Shown: piece after piece, positions 26,599 to 37,109 of the stretch
Numbering within the stretch: position 1 is the first letter of the stretch
Layout: each line of letters starts with the position of its first letter
Origin: Emiliania huxleyi CCMP1516
Lineage: Eukaryota
NCBI RefSeq assembly: GCF_000372725.1
Contig: NW_005201287.1
Location: 589,081 to 653,080 of the forward strand
Direction of reading: 5' to 3'
Length of the DNA stretch: 64,000 nucleotides
Made by a program: the position numbers and the translations under genes
The notes under the pieces: generated by a model
Told to the model about the DNA's origin: nothing
The model's input: the letters and a program-made list of their open reading frames with translations, nothing else
Database searches by the model: none

Positions 26599-27834
26599 TT
26601 ATGGCGGCATACAGCCGCCTACATCAAGACAACACCACAACAGCGAGATCCCCCCGAGCCCTCGCCATCGGCGCCACTGCCTCCCACGCATCCAACCTTC
26701 CAACGCCGGGTCGTACCGCTCGACCGAGCTGAGGTAGCCGTCTTCGTTGCGCCCGCCCACAGCGTATAGCTTGCCGTCGAGCACCGCGACGGCGTGATCA
26801 AACCGTTCCTCCATCATCGGCGTCACCGCCTCCCACTCATCAAGCGCCGGATCGTACCGCTCGACCGAGCTGAGAGGGGCACCGTGGTCATGTAGCCTCC
26901 CACAGCATACAGCTTGCCGTCGAGAAGTGCGGCTACCGCGTCGTCTCGCGTCGACGCCATCGGCTGCACCACCTCCCACGCGTTTGCCGAGGGATCGTAC
27001 CGCTCGACTGAGCTAAGGCAGTCATGAAAACCGTTGCCCCATCCGCCCACAACGTACAGCTTGCCGTCGAGTACCGCCACGGCGGGACTCTGCCGCCCCG
27101 AACCCATCGGCGCCACCTCCTCCCACGCGTTTGTCGCGGGATCGTACCGCTCCACCGAGCTGAGGCGGACTCCGCCGTCGTCGCGGTTGAAACCTCCGAC
27201 AGCATACAGCTTGCCGTTGAGCACCGCCACGCCGGGCTGATACCGAGCCAACGCCATCGGCGCCACCGCCTCCCATGCCTTTGTAGCGAAATCGTACCGC
27301 TCCGCAGAGTTGGAAGGATCGTCTTCATCGATGAAACCTCCCACCGCGTACAGCTTGCTATCGAGCACCGCCATGCCGGCATTCGTGCGAAAGTATGCCG
27401 GCATGGCCATGCTGGCATTCGTGCGTGCCGGCGGCATCGGCGCCACAGCTTCCTCCGCCTCCCACGCGCTTGTTGACGGGTCGTACCGCTCCAGCGAGTT
27501 CACGGAAAAGCCGTTGACGTTGCCACCGATCACGGTCAGGCGCGGCCTCTCGCGCTTCTTCAGCGTCTCCTTCCATCCGCGGCGCCACGCGCGGCACGTC
27601 CCCTTGATGGGAGGCGTACTCCTTGGTCGGCAGCTGGGCGAGGATGTGCGGGGCGAGGTCCGGCGAGAGGAGGACCTCGGAGAGCACCCACTCGGGCTGC
27701 TCCACGAGCCGTGCGGTGTGCTCCTCCGCCACGCGCAGCGCGGCGTCGCTCGCGCCCGCCTGCGCCTCGATGATGGCGCACAGCTGCGCTGGCGAGAGGC
27801 CCGCGACGCGCGCGCCGATGCGGTGGGAGGCCAT
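26599..27834 (-). pseudogene. F-box-like/kelch-repeat gene with frameshifts
   Basis: LSPDLAPHIL...CRAW F-box-like start; repeated VAVLDGKLYAVGG...SSVERYDP...WE units; frame breaks near 27610 and 26890. Confidence 0.8.
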
Positions 27835-28259
27835 CGGTGCGGCGGCGGCGGGCAGCGTTGGGCGAGGCCATGGTACAGTTCGGTATAACGCGCGGGCCCT
27901 CAGCGGAGCTGGGAATAGGACCGCCGCAAGCGGCGTGGCGTGGAGCGGTTGAGCATCCCTCCGGGGGCCCCTCTGCGCCGGGGAGGCGTTGTTGGAGGCT
28001 GGACGCAAGCGTCCGTCGCCCTGGTTTCAAACTCGGGGCCCTCCGCTACGCTCCGACCCGAATTCGGAGGGCCTGAAAGTTTAAGGTGTTGCTGCGCAAA
28101 AGGGGTCGGACACAGGGCGCAGCTCATGCCAAGAGCTAGAAGGGGAGCTAGAGAGAACGACTACCCTGTCCCGTTATTGCGTACACCAACACCACAAAAG
28201 CCTCTCTCTCTCCTGTCCTCACTCAGGGGGGTCACAACTACCGAGTCCCTCGACTAGCT

Positions 28260-28400: not shown

Positions 28401-29350
28401 GGTGCTTTGTGGGGCGGTGCGCAGCCAGGCCAGCAGTGAGGGGAGGCGCACCCTCACTCTCCTCGGTTGCAGAGCTCGTCGGAGGCTGCGGCACGACGGG
28501 AGGGTCGCGATAGCAGTCCTCGGGCGAGCCGACGCGCATGTCCAACCAGCGCTGGGACTCGTTGTGACGGCAGGCGCCGGCTGCCTCTCCAGCCGCTTCT
28601 GCAGCGTCCTTCTTTGCCCGGTGCATGGGCTCGATCCGATTCCGCAGCGTGTCGTCCCCAGCGGCGGTGCTGCGCGGGAGGCGGCCGCGGGCACGCTGGG
28701 CTCGATCAGCTTTCCCTAGCACGGATTTGGCCGACGTTCTTGCCCCCGTCCACGGCCGAGATCACATGGTTTCTGCACGGTATTCGGATTTTGCTATTTG
28801 TTCGTGTGGGGGTATATTGCAGATTTGTCAATGGTAACCGCGTCTGCGACGCGGGCGCCTTGCGGGCAGAGCCCTTAGCCACCCTTCATATCTTGCGCGG
28901 TCAAAAAGATTTGGCGAATCCCTCGCACAAAGAAAGAGCGAAATTATTTTTAGCAATACCCAATACCAATACCAAACAACTCTAACACTCACACATCATT
29001 TGGGGCCTGGAAAAACTTGCAGCGTGTTCTGGGTGGGTGGTGGCGGCGCTCCAAGAGCGGTGGTGCTCTTGTTGGGAAAAGAGCCCCCCCCCCCCCCCCC
29101 AAATGCAAAAACGCCCAAGGCGCGAGACACACCGACATGAAACAACTCTCTCTCGAATGGTCACAGCAGACAGTCCGGAAGCCCCCTAGCCTACAAAAAG
29201 GAACAGGTGCCCCCCCCGCCCCGCTCCCGCTTGGACTCTTTTTTTGGGCAGGAAAATAATTCTAGAATCAACAGTCACGCAATAGACTTACGTACATGCA
29301 CACGCAGAGAGAAGCAGTCACGTTTACCCCGTCTCCCACCGAAGAGCGTC

Positions 29351-32300
29351 TCACTCGCAGCGGGGGCGCGGCACTGGAGGCTCGACGACAGCCCACCCGC
29401 GCGGCAGCCCAGACTCGGCGTCGGTGCCGAGGAGGGAGGCCCAGAGCGACGCGGCAGAGTACCAGGCGGGCGGGGTGTGCGGCCACACGTTGAGCACGAG
29501 GTAGCGGTCAGACCGGGCGTGGTAGGCGGCGAGCGGCGAGAAGTGGCCTCCGAACGGCCGGTGGCCAAGGACACCCTGGAGGGGAGGGGGAGGGGAGGGC
29601 AGAGGAGGGGAGGGGTGAGGCGGCTTGGGAGATGCAAGGTGTCGCGGACAGGTCGGGATCTCGGCTTCGCACCTGGTGAAAGTTGGCGACGACGAGCCTC
29701 CGCGGCGCCGCGCGCAGCTCGGCTAGCAGCTGCTCGAGCCCCGCGCCACGCTCCGCTTTGAGAGCGGCCCACGCACCGCCGCCGCCCTCGCCGCCACCGC
29801 CACCGCCAACGCCGCCCTCGCCGCCACCGCCACCGCCCTCCCCACCGCCCCGCATCACAGGCGCCGCGTGCCACGTGCCGTGAGCGCCGGCGGAGAGGGG
29901 CGGCGACTCACCCTTCCCCGACTCACCCTTCCCCGACTCACCCTTCCCCGACTCACCCTTCCCCGACTCACCCTTCCCCGACGGCTTCGCGACTGGCGCG
30001 GGCGGGCTGGCTGGAACGACGCCCGCCGGGGCGGCGGCGGCGGCGAGTCCGAGGGAGTGGAGGAGCCGGCCCAGCTCTGGCAGCGTGATGCCGCCGCTGC
30101 GCACCTTTGCAAGCGGGAGGGCGGCGGCGGGAGGAGAGAGGGCTCCGTGCGCGCGCAGGACGACCTCCTCGTCGAGATCGCACCCGCCCTCCCCGCACTC
30201 GCCCTCCCCGCCCTCGCCAGAGGCGGCGGCGGCTTGCACCGCGGCCGCGGCAGCCCGCAGCGAGCTGTGCGCGGCGTGGCTCGCCGCCGCCCGCAGCAGC
30301 ATCGCGACCGAGGCGGCTCCGCACATCGTCGGGCCGGCCTGGCAGCGGAAGTGGGGCCAGAGCAGGTCGAAGGCGGCCCGGTCGGCGGGCGCGCACTCGA
30401 GCAGCAGCCGCCGCCCCTCCTCCGACGAGAGCAGCACTGCGGCCTCGCTCAGCGCCGCCGGCGGCGGCAGCGCGCCAAAAGGAGCCGCCCACGCCGGCGG
30501 AGGGGCGGTGACGGAGAAGGGGCGGCCCTCGCTCGCACAGCTGTACGACCAGGCGTGCAGCCACATCGCGTCCTCCCCCTCCGCCTCTCCTTCGTGGCCG
30601 TCGGAGAAGCGGGCGCGCGACGACCGCGACCGCTCCGAGAAGGCAACGCCGCCCTCGCCGCTACAAGGCCGCGGCCGCTTCCGCGCGCCTCCTTCGCCCG
30701 CCTCCCCGCCCTCCCCGCCCTCCCCGCCCTCCCCGCCGAGGCGGTAGAGGGGGTCGTTTGCGATGGGGTGTCCCGCGTACAGCAGGTGGAGGCGCACCTG
30801 CGGGACATGTCTCGGACATGTCATGGACGTGTCCCGCGTACAGCAGGTGGAGGCGCACCTGGCGAGGTGCAGGTGCAGGCCGAGGTGGAGCCGAGGTGGA
30901 GCCGAGGGGCGGCCGAGGTGCGCGTTCGAGGTGCGGCCGAGAGTGCGGCCCGAGGAGCTGCCGAGCGAGGCGCCTGGTGGGTTCGCCCCGTCAACGGCTC
31001 GCACAGCACCAGCGAGGTGTGGGAGGCGGCGTCGTACTCGACCCCCACCAGCACCGTCTCCGCGGGCTTTCCGCTCGCGTGGAGGCCGCAGGTCGTGCCG
31101 CCGTGCGCGCTCGCCACGCGGATCGGCACCTAGACTCGGGGAGATGTGGGGAGGTGTGGAGAGGTGTGGGGAGGTGTGGGGAGGTGTGGAGAGGTGTGGG
31201 GAGGTGTGGGGAGGTGTGGGGAGGTGTGGGGAGGTGTGGGGAGGTGTGGGGAGGTGTGGAGAGGTGTGGGGAGGTGTGGGGAGGTGTGGGGAGGTGTGGG
31301 GAGGTGTGGGGAGGTGTGGGGAGGTGTGTGGGGAGGTGTGTGGGGAGGTGTGTGGGGAGGTGTGTGGGGAGGTGTGATGGGAGGTGTGGGGAGGTGTGGG
31401 GAGATTGGCACCTAATCTCGCGCCGTCGCAGGCCATGTCGGGTCATCTCGGGCCAGCAGTGCACGCTCGTCCCGCATGTCGGCGCCGCCACAGTCACCGC
31501 CCCCCCGACCGGCACCGAGCCAGCCACGCGAGCGAGGTACTGCTTGCGCATGCCGCCGCCCTCGAGCGCCGCGCCGAGCCTGCTCGCCGCCGCCGCCGTG
31601 CGGGGAAGCAGCAGCACGCCAGACACCTGCGGCACGGGAGCAGAGTCGAGGCCGGGGCGAGGGCCAGGGCGAGGACCGGTCGGAAGGGCATCCCGATGGG
31701 CGCTGCACCTGCCGGTCGAGACGGTGCAGCACGTGCAGCCCGCTCCCTCCCCCTCCCCCTCCTCCTCCTCCTCCGCCTCCTCGCCCGCTCCCTCGCCCTC
31801 CCCCTCCTCCTCCTCCTCCTCGCCCTCCGCCTCCTCCTCCTCCTCCTCCTCCCCCTCCACCGAGGTTGAGGTCGGGTCGCTCGTGCGGCAGGATCTCGAC
31901 CAGCGTGTTGCGGCGGTACCTCCCCGCGTGGTGCACCGGCACGCCTGCAGGCAGACACGTCCAAGTCTGCTCCGGCCAGGCTGCTGCTGCCCGTGCTGCT
32001 CCCCCCCCGCCCCCCCCTCTCTCTCTCGCTCGCTCGCTCTCCGTCCCGCTGGCACGCCTGCGGGCTTGTGCAGGACAAGGAGGTCGTCAGCCTCGAGCAG
32101 CAGCCCGATCGGCGCAGCGGGCACCGACGGCTCCGTCCGCACCACCTCATGCACCAGCCGGTCTCCGTGCCGGAAGACGGTCTCCGCTCCACACGGACCG
32201 CCATTGAGGGTGAGCCGGCCCGCCGCTACCGCCTCCTGAGACGGGCAGCGTGTGCGATCGGCGAGCGAGGCGCGGGAGTTCAGGAATTAGGCTCGAGCCT

Positions 32301-32457
32301 GCAGGTACTCGGCGGAGCAGAGCATCTCGTCGCGCATGACGTCGAGCACCTTCCGGCCGACCCACCGCCCCTTTGTGTTGGAGACAAACTCATGCGTGTA
32401 CGGCACGACGTGCCTGCGGCCATCGCGTATCTCGTACCAGGTGGCGCGCAGAGACAT
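29351..32457 (-). CDS. RluA/RPUSD2-type pseudouridine synthase fused to a C-terminal phytochelatin-synthase-like (papain-fold) domain; about 7 exons
   Basis: PYTHEFVSNTKGRW, LHKPAGVPVH..GRY..NT, HRLDRQVSG, K.YLARV, PLTGRTHQVRLHL..AGHPIANDPLY, WLHA; then SSEEGRRLL, HFRCQ..PTMCG.AS, GGITL.ELG, VANF, GGHFSPLAAY...DRYLVLNV, DAESGLPRG*. Confidence 0.88.
31139..31402. repeat. Intronic 10-bp tandem repeat (GAGGTGTGGG)n
   Basis: Direct observation. Confidence 0.95.
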
Positions 32458-32678
32458 GGGTGGACAGGATAGCTGACTCGAGCCCCACCGAACCCAGAAG
32501 CCGCGAAGGCAGCGTGAAAAAGAATGATTACTGGGTAACGCGCATGAAAGACAAACGCGTTTCCTGTAACAGATGCCACGTGTGCACAAGGATCCGCCTG
32601 CGTTGGCTTTCGATTGGCTTGTGCCCGGGCCGCCACGGCTCCTCGTGCTTGTCGCGCCAGGACGTGGCAGTGCAGGAA

Positions 32679-35600
32679 ATGACCGCCGCGTCGCCCGGGC
32701 CACGGCGGTGGCGCCTCACTCCCAGCAGCACGCGATCGTCGACTGGCACGGTTCAACGGTCCTCGCCTCTCTTGGGACTCTCGCGCGCCATCGTGCAGGA
32801 ATGCACCTCTGGCCCTCTTGAGGAGCCGCGGCGTTCCTCGGTGGTCGAGGTCTTGGGCGCGGAGGGCGGCGGCGCGGAGGGCGGCGGCGCGGAGGGCGGC
32901 GGCGCGGAGGGCGGCGGCAGAGAGGGCGGTGGAGAGCAGGAGTTCATGCCAGTGCAGGCTGCGCCAGTGCCGCCTCGCCGGACCGAGGTGGAAAGCGGCA
33001 GAACCATGCCTGAGCCGCACCTGGAGGCACGGAAGCAGCAGCCAAAAGACCCTTTTGAGCGGCCAAAGGTGAAGGACGAGCATGTGCCTTGGCATAAGGA
33101 GGCGCCAGAATATGCGCCGCGCAGCACCAACTTTCCCCTCGTGAGGATGGACGAGCAAGGAATGGATTGGACTGCGACTCTACGCGAAGCAGGCGGGCTC
33201 GGCGTGATTCTCTCCGGCGAGAAGACGCACCGCCTCAACCCAGGAGGGCGGACCGGCCTCGTCGGTGGCTGGTCCGAACACGCGCATGCGGGCGCCAACC
33301 GGGCAGTCGACCCAATAATCACGCGTTTCCGGCCGGATGCAAAGGAGCCGACGCTGCAGCTTCTCGCCGGCCTGCGGCGCGACTGCAATGCTTGGGCTCT
33401 GCCCGGTGCGATGATACGGACATCTGAGACCGTCGAGACTGCGATGCGACGCGGCTTGGCCGAAAAGGGAGTAGACAGCAAGATTGTCAGTCTATTGCGC
33501 TTTGACCTGCCGGAGGCATCCGACAGCGGATACATCTACATCGACGACTCGCGCAACACCGACGACGCTTGGATCGAGAGCACGGTGTACAAGTTCCACC
33601 TAGAGGACCAGGACACCACTGTCAGCTGCCCGGGGGTGAAGTGGGTCGATATCTCCGGAGCTGGCGGTGTCAACATCTTCAAGCCGCACCGCCTCTGGGT
33701 AAAGGAGGTGGCCGACGAGCTACTCAACGCGCCTATGCTTGAGCGCAAAATGCGAGGCGTCCGTCTCAAGCTCCTCTTCCGGCCCTTGGAGCTCAACCTC
33801 ACCAAGGGGGTACGGCTCGTCCGATGCGCTCCGGAGAGCAGCCCTTCCTTCAACCGCTTGCTCGCTTGCAGCGAGAAGCAGAGTGAGGCGCTCACCATCA
33901 ACGAGAGCGGGGCCATTTCGAGCGTGACGCACGTGGAGCTGCGGCTGGATATCCATAAAGGGCGGCTGCGCCCCGAGGTGGAGGCGCAGATGAACCCAGC
34001 GATCCTGCGCAAGGAGGCGCAGATGAAGTGGGTGCGGTGTCGCTGCGCTCCTTTCGCGCCGATCGCTGTTGGATGGGAGTCGCGCAACCGCTTCTCAATA
34101 CCTCAAGATGCGACGCACCAAGCGTTCGTCTACGGGCCACTAGACGCCGCGGACGCCGCCTTCGCAGGAGAGGTGATGTACCCTGACCCCAAGACTGCGC
34201 ATTTTGAGCAGCTGCTGGTGAGTGGCGGCTTCGTGTACGCCAAATGCGAGGGCCAGCAGGTCGACGTGCTGCGTGTGACGCACGTCGATAACGTCGACGA
34301 GAACGACCTGTACTCGAAGAACCACGTCGTCGAGTTCAAGGGCCCACACCGGATGGAGGAGGGCCCGCTTCGGCACGCACAGAAGCAGGAGCACTGGACA
34401 CCGGTGTCGCTCTCGTTCCTCCTCGCGGCGGGTGCGCACTCCTTCATGTGGCTGAACCCGGGCGAGCACGCGGGCACGCACCCCATCAAGTTTGGCGCTT
34501 TCGCGTACTCCTCACACAAAGCGTCGGCTGGGGGGCCGCGGGCGGCACGCGCCGCCCCCCCGGTCGCCGCAGACGGCAGCGCCAACGCCGTCTACTTTTT
34601 TCTAAGGTCGGAAGACAACTCGTGCGGGGCAGCTGCTGATATGGACCTCAAGACCGCCGGCGTCATGGCGCCCGTCGAGGTGGCCCGAGAGCATTCATCT
34701 AAGAAGAACAACGCCGTGGACGCCAGCGATGCCGCACATAAGGCCGCCGCCCACAACTGGTTTTTGTTTCACGATGCCGTCGCGATGGGCAATGCCTCGC
34801 TCGTTGAGTCGCTCATCAAGGATGACAGGTTGCTTCCTGAGGAGATGGTTGAGTCCCAGCTCACGAGACGCGAGCTCAAGGCTGCGCTTTCTCGCACGGG
34901 GACGAGCTCTGCCCTCCCTCGCTCCTTCTCTCCGGCGGAGCAGTCAAGCAGAGCCTCCTCCCGAAGTGTGGATATCAGCCGCGTGGACGTGCCTGATGGC
35001 AGCAGCTCGCTTACACCACTTATGGTGGCAGCGGAGTACGGCCACGGCGACGTGGTGCGCACGCTGATACGTCGTGGCGCATCTCCCACGGCGCAGGCAA
35101 AGGACGGCGCAACGGCGATGGACCATGCGTTGCGCGTCCCCGCATCCGGCATCCCCGTCGAGCAGTTGCTTTGCAAGCTCGACGCCGCCATCGCCCTGCT
35201 GCCGGCGCTTTTCCGCCACTCTGCTGGCGAGGCACTGTGCTACGTCACCAAGATTGCGGAACGCGCGCACATCGAGCGCGAGCGGCGCGAACGCAGCAGC
35301 CCCGCGGAAGCCGAGAAGCTTCAAGCGACGGCGGACCGCGCGGAGCGCTTGGGTGTCGAGCTTATCAAAAAGCTCTCGGTGCTGCAGCGCACGCTTCTCC
35401 TCGAGCGCGAGAAGCGCAAGGAGAGTCTTTTCCTCGAGGGCGGGACGTCCAAGGAGATCAAGCGGCCCCCTGGCTTCGTGGCTCGGCCCCGCGGCTTCGT
35501 GGCTCGCGCCGTCAACGTGCCGCGCCAGAAGAAGTTGCTGGGTGACCCGACGGTGCAGGCTGCCATCAACTACCGTTGGATGGGCCCACTGATCAACTCC

Positions 35601-37109
35601 GTCGTCAACGGCTACGTCGTCACGCCAAACGGGGACGAGGAGAGGGTGCGCCGGCCGTTCGCGCGAGTTGTCCTCCTTCTGCTCGCTGCCGCCGTCAACT
35701 TACTCTTCCTGCCGCTCGTGGCATTTATCCCTCGGCTGCGGCGGCTGCTGATGTGGACCCTCGATTTTGGTTTTGAGCTCGTCTCGTCGGACCGCACACC
35801 CTACAGCGAGGGCTTCCAACGCAAGTGGAGCCCGTCGGCGCAGCTCTACACCCGCTCCCTCTACCTGCTCGACGCTCCCTTCTTTCAGTTCTTCATCTCG
35901 TCTGTGAGCTGGCTGCTCCTCTCTCTCGTGCTGACGCGCACGGCGACGCCGAGTTTGCGTGGGGCTGTGGCCGACGCATGGGCTCTGCTCTCGTCCGAGG
36001 GGGCTGATGGCATCGCCCCTGCGTTGGCTACTGTGGTGGAGGAGGTGGGGAGCTTGGCGCTGAACGCATTGCTGCTCTCAGGCTTGCTGCTCTGGCTGCT
36101 GGCACACTTCATCGACGAAATCGAGACCTTTTCTTGGAGCGACCCGATCAAGAAGGGCGAGCTCCTCGGGATCAGCCTCGCCCTGTCCTCCAAGCTGGCG
36201 CCCATGTTCAACAGGCACATGCTCGCCTTTGGCCTACTCCTCATGTGGCTCTCGTGGTTCATGCGCGTCTTCTCGCTGGGCGGACTGGGCACTTTGACCG
36301 TGATGCTCGAAAAGATGCTCTTCGACACGGTCAAGTTCCTAGTCTTTATGGTTGGTTGCGCCGTCGCCTTTGCCGCCGCACTGCACCAGCTCTTTCTCGA
36401 GGCACACGTCCTCGACGTTGAGGATTGCGACAAGTTCAGTGAATTTGGTGAGGGGTTGCTGGTGTCGCTGAGGCGGCTGCTGCTGGTTGCCATAGATCCG
36501 GCAGAGAGTATCGACTGCGCAGGCACGATTGCAGAGGCGCTGCAGGACTTTCACTTTACGGCGCCATTCATCATGAGCGTGTACGTCATCCTGTCGGTGG
36601 TGCTGCTGCTCAATATGCTTATCGCGATCATGGCGAAGACGTTCGATACCGTGTGGGACGACGCCGAGACGGAGAATCGCTACCTCAGAGCGCAACTCGC
36701 GGTGCAGTATTTTGGCGATGCGCCGCCACCGCCCTTCAACCTCCTGCGGCTCCCGGCCCGCGTGCCGGAGCTGCTGGAGAGGTGCTGGGCCAAGGTAAGC
36801 CACGCGTGTGGGCTGGCCGCCACCTGCTGTTACGGCGCTGGGAAGTGGCTCGTGTGGCTCGCCTGCCTACCTTGCCTCGCGGTGTGGGCCGTCCGACGGG
36901 CGTGGGCCCTCCCCCGGCAAGACAAGTCTTCGCAAGAGGGCCTGTTTTTGAGCGAGGGGCTGTCGACCGACGGCGACATGGACGACCTCGATCCGTCGAA
37001 CGTGCGCTATGTCGACGGGCTAGGCCAGCTGTGGTCGGAGCGGAACACCGTCGAGGAGCTGATGAAGCTCGAGGCGGAGGGTAGATCGAAAGAGGAGCGA
37101 AAGGAGTGA
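32679..37109 (+). CDS. Intronless TRP-family cation channel with N-terminal NUDT9-like domain, unknown domain and ankyrin repeats (start taken as first plausible ATG; frame open from 32373)
   Basis: NUDT9-like: ERPKV....VPW, LNPGGRTGL, GANRAVDPIITR, RRDC..WALPG, GYIYIDDSRNTDDAWIES; ANK: TPLMVAAEYGHGDVVRTLIRRGA; channel: APFFQF, LGTLTVMLEKMLFD..KF, LLLNMLIAIMAKTF...PPPFNLL. Confidence 0.92.
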   Translation: MTAASPGPRRWRLTPSSTRSSTGTVQRSSPLLGLSRAIVQECTSGPLEEPRRSSVVEVLGAEGGGAEGGGAEGGGAEGGGREGGGEQEFMPVQAAPVPPRRTEVESGRTMPEPHLEARKQQPKDPFERPKVKDEHVPWHKEAPEYAPRSTNFPLVRMDEQGMDWTATLREAGGLGVILSGEKTHRLNPGGRTGLVGGWSEHAHAGANRAVDPIITRFRPDAKEPTLQLLAGLRRDCNAWALPGAMIRTSETVETAMRRGLAEKGVDSKIVSLLRFDLPEASDSGYIYIDDSRNTDDAWIESTVYKFHLEDQDTTVSCPGVKWVDISGAGGVNIFKPHRLWVKEVADELLNAPMLERKMRGVRLKLLFRPLELNLTKGVRLVRCAPESSPSFNRLLACSEKQSEALTINESGAISSVTHVELRLDIHKGRLRPEVEAQMNPAILRKEAQMKWVRCRCAPFAPIAVGWESRNRFSIPQDATHQAFVYGPLDAADAAFAGEVMYPDPKTAHFEQLLVSGGFVYAKCEGQQVDVLRVTHVDNVDENDLYSKNHVVEFKGPHRMEEGPLRHAQKQEHWTPVSLSFLLAAGAHSFMWLNPGEHAGTHPIKFGAFAYSSHKASAGGPRAARAAPPVAADGSANAVYFFLRSEDNSCGAAADMDLKTAGVMAPVEVAREHSSKKNNAVDASDAAHKAAAHNWFLFHDAVAMGNASLVESLIKDDRLLPEEMVESQLTRRELKAALSRTGTSSALPRSFSPAEQSSRASSRSVDISRVDVPDGSSSLTPLMVAAEYGHGDVVRTLIRRGASPTAQAKDGATAMDHALRVPASGIPVEQLLCKLDAAIALLPALFRHSAGEALCYVTKIAERAHIERERRERSSPAEAEKLQATADRAERLGVELIKKLSVLQRTLLLEREKRKESLFLEGGTSKEIKRPPGFVARPRGFVARAVNVPRQKKLLGDPTVQAAINYRWMGPLINSVVNGYVVTPNGDEERVRRPFARVVLLLLAAAVNLLFLPLVAFIPRLRRLLMWTLDFGFELVSSDRTPYSEGFQRKWSPSAQLYTRSLYLLDAPFFQFFISSVSWLLLSLVLTRTATPSLRGAVADAWALLSSEGADGIAPALATVVEEVGSLALNALLLSGLLLWLLAHFIDEIETFSWSDPIKKGELLGISLALSSKLAPMFNRHMLAFGLLLMWLSWFMRVFSLGGLGTLTVMLEKMLFDTVKFLVFMVGCAVAFAAALHQLFLEAHVLDVEDCDKFSEFGEGLLVSLRRLLLVAIDPAESIDCAGTIAEALQDFHFTAPFIMSVYVILSVVLLLNMLIAIMAKTFDTVWDDAETENRYLRAQLAVQYFGDAPPPPFNLLRLPARVPELLERCWAKVSHACGLAATCCYGAGKWLVWLACLPCLAVWAVRRAWALPRQDKSSQEGLFLSEGLSTDGDMDDLDPSNVRYVDGLGQLWSERNTVEELMKLEAEGRSKEERKE

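What the first reader, a model, noticed from the sequence alone, without database searches (positions are those of the whole stretch)
29351..32457. Pseudouridine synthase fused to a phytochelatin-synthase-like domain
Seen: a complete RluA-type motif set including catalytic HRLD. The last synthase motifs (GHPIANDPLY, WLHA) continue without stop or intron, within exon ~30798-29673, into SSEEGRRLL...HFRCQAGPTMCG; GGHFSP lies in the final exon. Known: phytochelatin synthases are papain-fold glutathione transpeptidases in metal detoxification, normally unfused to RNA enzymes. Inference: possible coupling of RNA modification with glutathione/metal chemistry, or a repurposed papain-fold domain acting on RNA or a modified base. 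I know of no described example.
Basis: partly seen in the sequence, partly recalled or inferred. Interest (0 to 1): 0.8.

Follow-up and report, generated by a model that had tools for sequence, protein, structure and literature searches.

The report
Haptophyte RNA-modifying enzyme with peptidase tail
This algal gene joins an RNA pseudouridine synthase to a phytochelatin-synthase-shaped domain that lacks the residues needed to build phytochelatins, so it likely makes a two-job protein that modifies tRNA and, probably separately, cuts a small peptide or amide of unknown identity.

Summary
The fusion is real. A 7-exon minus-strand gene (32457-29351, 739 aa) joins an S4-like/RluA pseudouridine synthase (HRLD, Asp189) to a PF05023 domain inside one stop-free exon. 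RNA contigs show five of six introns and bridge the junction. The locus matches Emiliania huxleyi EMIHUDRAFT_201067, whose public model is mis-spliced. The same fusion occurs in Prymnesium parvum, Chrysochromulina and about a dozen unnamed relatives, several as intronless ORFs. The synthase half is structurally closest to the yeast Rib2/Pus8 group. The second half is probably not a working phytochelatin synthase: it keeps Gln/Cys/His and Asp (Asn here and in P. parvum), but lacks the Arg152 and Lys185 equivalents that Arabidopsis PCS needs. The domain also occurs apparently alone and fused to dephospho-CoA kinase in Parmales, and a Tisochrysis synthase lacks it. Best reading: a Rib2-style bifunctional protein, with a tRNA pseudouridine synthase and a retuned papain-fold cysteine hydrolase working independently. 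Coupling to metal chemistry or action on RNA is unsupported but not excluded. No description was found in the searched literature; nothing is assayed.

The parts
32299..32457 (-). Exon 1, ATG at 32457; N-terminal segment of the synthase; no obvious targeting peptide
   Evidence: intron 1 joint in 4 of 4 runs
32058..32235 (-). Exon 2: S4-like segment and HKPAG motif
   Evidence: RNA contigs skip 113 nt (table 8); the S4-like label rests on Atlas clusters and recall
31709..31944 (-). Exon 3: poly-Gly insert and HRLD with catalytic Asp189 (31717-31715)
   Evidence: intron 3 joint in X5 and X6
31486..31626 (-). Exon 4 (KQYLARV); in-frame GC donor at 31485
   Evidence: donor inferred from alignment to P0002 and from contig ends
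31412..31485 (-). Extension used by an alternative GT donor at 31411; shifts the frame, stop at 30993-30991 (308 aa, neither domain complete)
   Evidence: joint 31124/31407 in X5 and X6
30974..31129 (-). Exon 5 (GRTHQ)
   Evidence: intron 5 joint in X5
29673..30797 (-). Exon 6: end of the synthase (GHPIANDPLY, basic KRPR insert, WLHA), linker, and first part of the PCS-fold domain (Gln443, Cys449, Gln665 at the Arg152 position)
   Evidence: X4 contig 29953-30700
29351..29575 (-). Exon 7: His676 (GGHFSP), Asn694 in place of the triad Asp, WPHTPP in place of the Arg-aromatic-Lys-Tyr loop; stop
   Evidence: intron 6 skipped in 4 of 4 runs with no variant listed at the Asn codon

Best explanation
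The gene encodes one polypeptide with two enzyme-like halves that likely work independently: an RluA-family pseudouridine synthase predicted to modify tRNA (likely anticodon-loop U32, as Rib2/Pus8 does) and a papain-fold cysteine hydrolase that likely cleaves a small peptide or amide instead of polymerising phytochelatins. Shown: the gene structure, the joined reading frame, both folds in models of relatives, the residues present and absent, and conservation. Inferred: Asp189 isomerises uridine. Cys449, activated by His676 and Asn694 with Gln443 as oxyanion hole, forms an acyl-enzyme that water resolves. The cationic pocket for a second glutathione is replaced (Met/Gln for Arg152; Trp-Pro-x-Thr for the Arg-aromatic-Lys-Tyr loop). 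Removing glycine from glutathione or a glutathione conjugate is the nearest candidate reaction, but the substrate is open. The fusion looks old, is inherited vertically, and is dispensable in some lineages. A basic motif in a disordered insert may be a nuclear import signal.
For: Fusion: 8 of 12 hits and 12 of 13 hits carry PF00849+PF05023, including P. parvum; intronless full-length ORFs in L001/L002, L005, L007. Folds: the AF2 model of P0009 matches RluD/RluA (E 7e-18, 1e-13) and Nostoc Alr0975 (E 6e-13). Synthase group: Atlas structure neighbours are a chordate cluster and two Ascomycota clusters named tRNA pseudouridine(32) synthase and DRAP deaminase, TM 0.87-0.88. Residues: the Arg173/Lys206 positions of NsPCS were mapped with numbering from PMC3855540. 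At the Arg position 0 of 73 motif matches have Arg (69 Met, 2 Gln, 2 Leu). Lys follows the triad residue in 1 of 73, and that one is the canonical PCS P0035. The triad residue is Asp in 71 and Asn in 2 of 73 (many rows are near-identical cluster members). In AtPCS1, R152A and K185A leave 0.02% activity. Q, C, H and D/N columns are at least 93% conserved in A3, and PCS-domain dN/dS is 0.20-0.58 in five pairs. Independence: CoaE fusion in Parmales, apparently stand-alone copies, synthases without the domain (P0046 Tisochrysis, P0045, P0030). Precedent: Pus8/Rib2. K[RK]x[RK] in the insert in 14 of 16 fused representatives.
Against: No activity is measured for either half. The mutant data concern phytochelatin synthesis only, in one plant enzyme, so they do not show what the retuned site accepts. 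The window's own copy carries Asp-to-Asn and long low-complexity inserts, and could be weaker or dead. The PCS half evolves faster than the synthase (dN/dS 0.58 against 0.22 in L005/L007). Whole-protein pTM of 0.70, 0.66 and 0.71 is higher than I would expect for two freely moving domains, a weak hint of docking. The unfused synthases may be paralogues or cut by introns, the synthase tree has no outgroup, and Emiliania groups with Prymnesium instead of Tisochrysis (expected kinship recalled). No RPUSD2 or Rib2 sequence was in the tree, so U32 specificity rests and recall. A frameshifted splice form is present in two studies.
Confidence: 0.55

Rival explanations
1. The PCS-fold half is a non-catalytic or decaying appendage (ligand binding, dimerising or scaffolding), at least in the Emiliania/Prymnesium branch.
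For: Asp-to-Asn and Arg-to-Gln occur together in the window and P0003; the domain is absent in some relatives; it evolves faster. AtPCS1 has a role that survives catalytic-site mutation (10.1101/568113, abstract).
Against: Gln, Cys and His are kept in the window and across the family at about 48% mean identity. Asn is the usual third residue of papain-clan proteases (PMC3101182 passage).
Confidence: 0.2
2. The halves are coupled: the papain-fold domain hydrolyses or transfers an acyl or amino-acid group on the bound tRNA or a partner protein, or regulates the synthase in response to thiols.
For: The fusion is kept across at least 13 sequence clusters, with correlated distances (rho 0.68, 14 sequences; this shows shared inheritance only). 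The distance from WLH to the PCS start is 44-49 residues in 8 of the 15 fused sequences measured. pTM is 0.66-0.71. The glutathione acceptor pocket is gone.
Against: The domain also occurs with dephospho-CoA kinase and apparently alone, and synthases lack it. The linker is stretched to 56-90 residues in the other 7 as measured; one of these, P0041, is over-counted by my motif search. No direct evidence of RNA contact.
Confidence: 0.13
3. It is a true phytochelatin synthase that happens to be fused to the RNA enzyme.
For: PF05023 is above the cut-off; UniRef auto-names it glutathione gamma-glutamylcysteinyltransferase; E. huxleyi makes phytochelatins (review passages).
Against: Arg152, Lys185 and Tyr186 equivalents are absent, and Asp180 is Asn here. 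Whether E. huxleyi has a canonical PCS elsewhere could not be checked, because no genome is held.
Confidence: 0.07
4. Two adjacent genes or an assembly chimera mimic a fusion.
For: No single RNA contig spans the gene, and RNA libraries can hold DNA. The public model differs.
Against: The junction lies in one stop-free exon that is spliced to synthase exon 5 and to PCS exon 7. Intronless full-length ORFs exist in relatives.
Confidence: 0.02

Closest known systems
Yeast Pus8/Rib2 (tRNA U32 pseudouridine synthase + DRAP deaminase); Pus9 and RPUSD2 group
   Same: S4-like + RluA synthase at the N-terminus with an unrelated enzyme at the C-terminus (PMC5699540 passages); nearest predicted structures, TM 0.87-0.88.
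   Different: The partner is a papain-fold PF05023 domain, not a deaminase; RNA target untested.
Phytochelatin synthase (AtPCS1, EC 2.3.2.15) and Nostoc NsPCS/Alr0975
   Same: Fold, oxyanion Gln, Cys and His; Asp in most members; about 27% identity in the structural alignment of a relative's model.
   Different: No Arg152, Lys185 or Tyr186 equivalents; Asn for Asp in this copy; no Cys-rich C-terminal domain; fused behind a synthase.
Papain clan CA proteases (Cys-His-Asn)
   Same: The window's triad has the papain-type Asn (passage).
   Different: Sequence and fold remain PCS-like; no evidence of protein substrates.

Membership tests
RluA-family pseudouridine synthase | HRLD catalytic Asp and flanking motifs (KP.G, K.Y, GRTHQ.R.H, GHPI..D..Y, .LHA) | tested here: met
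   All present in the spliced model; PF00849 96 bits in P0003.
RluA-family pseudouridine synthase | NCBIfam TIGR00005 curated cut-off (192.7 bits) | tested here: inconclusive
   Relatives score 166-178 bits, below the cut-off of this prokaryote-based model; the spliced window protein itself was not scanned.
Rib2/Pus9/RPUSD2 subgroup | Grouping with these proteins | tested here: inconclusive
   Nearest predicted structures only; no such sequences in my tree.
Rib2/Pus9/RPUSD2 subgroup | Forms pseudouridine at tRNA U32 | not testable with these tools
   Needs an assay.
PF05023 / PCS fold | Profile match and papain-like fold | tested here: met
   the fold was modelled on relatives P0009 and P0016, not on the window protein.
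Phytochelatin synthase | Cys-His-Asp triad | tested here: not met
   Cys449-His676-Asn694 in the window; Asp in 71 of 73 motif matches overall.
Phytochelatin synthase | Arg152, Lys185, Tyr186 acceptor pocket | tested here: not met
   0 of 73 with Arg; Lys only in the canonical control P0035.
Phytochelatin synthase | Oxyanion Gln50 | tested here: met
   Gln443.
Phytochelatin synthase | gamma-Glu-Cys transpeptidation | not testable with these tools
   Needs an assay.

The most novel reading that the evidence does not exclude
The retuned papain-fold domain docks on the synthase and acts on the same tRNA, adding or removing an acyl or amino-acid group near the anticodon loop, which would make it an RNA-directed enzyme evolved from phytochelatin synthase.
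Probability: 0.1. Interest if true: 0.88.

Novelty: new variant of a known kind. Interest (0 to 1): 0.55.

Why it matters
It defines an apparently undescribed eukaryotic subfamily of the phytochelatin-synthase fold with a rebuilt substrate pocket. Small intronless members (199-220 aa) make it easy to test what PCS-like proteins do besides metal detoxification. It adds a second independent case of a Rib2-type synthase carrying an unrelated enzyme, in major bloom-forming algae. It shows that database names of 'glutathione gamma-glutamylcysteinyltransferase' for these proteins are doubtful, and it corrects the E. huxleyi gene model. The same domain appears to have moved recently from a haptophyte-type lineage into Parmales and fused to dephospho-CoA kinase.

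Tried and rejected
Prokaryotic members of the subfamily: GTDB scan, 75 pattern hits, 0 confirmed (one pattern, confirmed against a 74-aa first sequence, so weak). Viral contigs: 18 pattern hits, 0 confirmed. Atlas feature search of P0021 returned only generic, mostly bacterial PCS-family clusters at 0.94-0.96, with no functional lead. The first homolog search was crowded by low-complexity words and gave 2 hits among 7984 scored. P0024 and P0031 match only a short helix of repeat proteins and were dropped. L014-L016 were weak or partial and were not used. P0002, P0028 and fragments were left out of the PCS tree; P0020 is frame-garbled and was left out. Earlier scan findings: none. Domain docking, a canonical PCS elsewhere in the genome, and a direct view of the in-frame intron-4 joint therefore stay open. 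Bins without RNA cover in single runs were not used as evidence. Neighbouring genes differ among the window, L001, L005 and L007 and give no functional clue. My first mapping of Arg152 to His was wrong and was corrected to Met/Gln/Leu.

Full report
Gene and transcript. The minus strand gives seven exons (32457-32299, 32235-32058, 31944-31709, 31626-31486, 31129-30974, 30797-29673, 29575-29351), 2220 nt and 739 aa, with four GC-AG and two GT-AG introns. The end of the synthase and the start of the PF05023 domain share exon 6, 1125 nt with no in-frame stop. I laid 4 of the 16 listed runs, from three studies. Introns 1, 2, 3, 5 and 6 appear as joints or split contigs. One X4 contig runs 29953-30700 through WLHA and the catalytic Cys at depth 140, comparable with that run's spliced contigs, while 32556-32800 has none. 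An intron-free stretch cannot by itself exclude DNA, and no contig spans the whole gene. The in-frame intron-4 joint is not listed, but contigs end at 31485 and begin at 31130, where that splice predicts branching. A competing donor at 31411 shifts the frame and stops at codon 309. The locus matches E. huxleyi CCMP1516 EMIHUDRAFT_201067 at 83-100% in its clean segments; that model lacks HRLD and the last exon.

Distribution. Exon 7 as query gave 12 hits among 77 candidates, 8 with both PF00849 and PF05023. A profile search of 490-2000-aa proteins gave 13 hits among 7992 scored: 12 with both domains and one with CoaE + PF05023. Named fused members are Prymnesium parvum AB1Y20_020773 and a Chrysochromulina model that lacks the middle of the synthase. 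The others are unnamed, and their haptophyte identity is inferred from similarity. L001/L002, L005 and L007 encode the fusion as single uninterrupted ORFs. Ten representatives average 55% identity in the synthase and 48% in the PCS part. Distances of the two halves correlate (rho 0.68, permutation p 0.0002, 14 sequences), which shows shared inheritance, not co-function. Against an obligate link: Tisochrysis P0046 and unnamed P0045 and P0030 end shortly after the synthase and fall among fused members in a midpoint-rooted tree. L009-L012 show the PCS-like domain with no synthase match in 1.0-1.6 kb upstream. A Parmales protein carries it on dephospho-CoA kinase. The unfused cases could be paralogues or intron-cut predictions. 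No prokaryotic or viral member was confirmed (limited sensitivity).

Synthase half. All RluA motifs are present. An AF2 model of relative P0009 (pLDDT 72, pTM 0.70) matches RluD and RluA. The Atlas model of P0003 residues 55-335 is closest to a chordate cluster and to Ascomycota clusters named tRNA pseudouridine(32) synthase and DRAP deaminase, TM 0.87-0.88. Yeast Pus8/Rib2 modifies cytoplasmic tRNA U32 and carries a riboflavin-pathway deaminase (PMC5699540, passages). U32 specificity here is an inference. A K[RK]x[RK] motif lies in the low-confidence insert in 14 of 16 fused representatives; reading it as a nuclear signal is inference.

PCS-fold half. The same model matches Nostoc Alr0975 (E 6e-13). 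The alignment of P0008 to Alr0975 and the numbering in PMC3855540 (passages and Table 1 text) place Gln64, Arg173, Lys206 and Tyr207 (Arabidopsis Gln50, Arg152, Lys185, Tyr186). Among 113 sequences screened (112 held plus the window model), 73 matched the His motif: 69 Met, 2 Gln, 2 Leu and no Arg at the Arg152 position. A nearly identical set of 73 matched the third triad residue: 71 Asp and 2 Asn (window, P. parvum), with Lys following only in canonical P0035. These rows include many near-identical cluster members. In AtPCS1, R152A and K185A keep 0.02% of activity. Gln, Cys, His and the new NYH..G..PFGGHFSP and LVL[DN].WP.T.P motifs are highly conserved. dN/dS is 0.20-0.58 over five pairs; one rests on 8 changes, and high GC may understate dS. 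Asn is the usual third residue in papain-clan proteases (PMC3101182, passage), and RNA contigs from three studies list no variant at that codon. So the domain is under selection with a catalytic core but a rebuilt pocket.

Mechanism. Most likely (0.55) a Rib2-style bifunctional protein: the synthase makes pseudouridine in tRNA, and the second domain forms a Cys acyl-enzyme with a small peptide or amide and hydrolyses it, without the transpeptidation that yields phytochelatins. Glycine removal from glutathione or its conjugates is the nearest known reaction, but the substrate is unproven. Rivals are a non-catalytic appendage (0.2), coupled action on RNA or regulation of the synthase (0.13), true PCS (0.07) and artefact (0.02). 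pTM values of 0.70, 0.66 and 0.71 weakly hint at docking; no controlled complex prediction was obtained.

Literature. Full-text searches for phytochelatin synthase + pseudouridine synthase, and for phytochelatin synthase + fusion + haptophyte, gave 0 papers. Phytochelatin + pseudourid gave 4 papers, 3 listed, unrelated by title. Searches listed nothing describing the fusion (listings only, except as noted). A 2024 survey of algal PCS (PMC11314372; part 1 of 7 plus passages) has no occurrence of hapto-, Emiliania, Prymnesi- or Chrysochromulina. PMC3239186 (passages) mentions only the yeast deaminase fusion. PMC7216689 and PMC9917255 (passages) report phytochelatins in E. huxleyi. PMC7718762 (passages) lists RUSD2, RIB2 and PUS9 as closest homologs of the fly RluA proteins. 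10.1101/568113 was seen as abstract and outline. No supplements were read and subscription journals are mostly absent, so absence from print is not proven; the domain pair is already visible in automatic database annotation.

Verdict. A real, conserved and transcribed fusion; a new variant of the bifunctional Rib2-type synthase with an apparently undescribed, retuned PCS-fold partner. Interest 0.55, or 0.88 if the domain acts on tRNA (probability about 0.1).

Noticed in passing
L004:3104-4672 (+); P0053, P0055: The same PCS-like domain is fused behind dephospho-CoA kinase (PF01121); the 13-member cluster includes a Parmales sp. scaly parma record. The domain nests with fused members P0011/P0013 (support 1.0), has dS 0.245 to L008 and GC3 0.75 against 0.58 in the kinase part. 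This suggests a recent transfer between eukaryote lineages; direction is inferred, with no formal clade test.
   Followed up: partly
window 31412-31485 (-): An alternative GT donor at 31411 gives a frameshifted transcript with a stop at 30993, seen in two studies (contig depth 7.85 in X5, 21.9 in X6); a likely decay target.
   Followed up: partly
window 32340-37109 (+): A divergent 1589-codon stop-to-stop ORF with ankyrin and Ion_trans matches. Its N-terminal part looks by eye like a Nudix/ADP-ribose pyrophosphatase (recalled; no Pfam hit), a TRP-channel-like layout.
   Followed up: partly
window 26823-27899 (-) and 26599-27012 (-): Kelch-repeat gene continuing across a frame change.
   Followed up: no
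window 30798-30862 (-): Intron 5 contains a duplicated copy of the acceptor and the first bases of exon 6, giving a decoy acceptor near 30858.
   Followed up: no
P0015 against window 28797-32457: The public model EMIHUDRAFT_201067 omits HRLD and the His/Asn exon and ends in downstream sequence at 28995-28797.
   Followed up: yes
P0050, P0028, L013:170-270: Some apparently stand-alone members begin with a hydrophobic stretch resembling a signal peptide; not tested.
   Followed up: no
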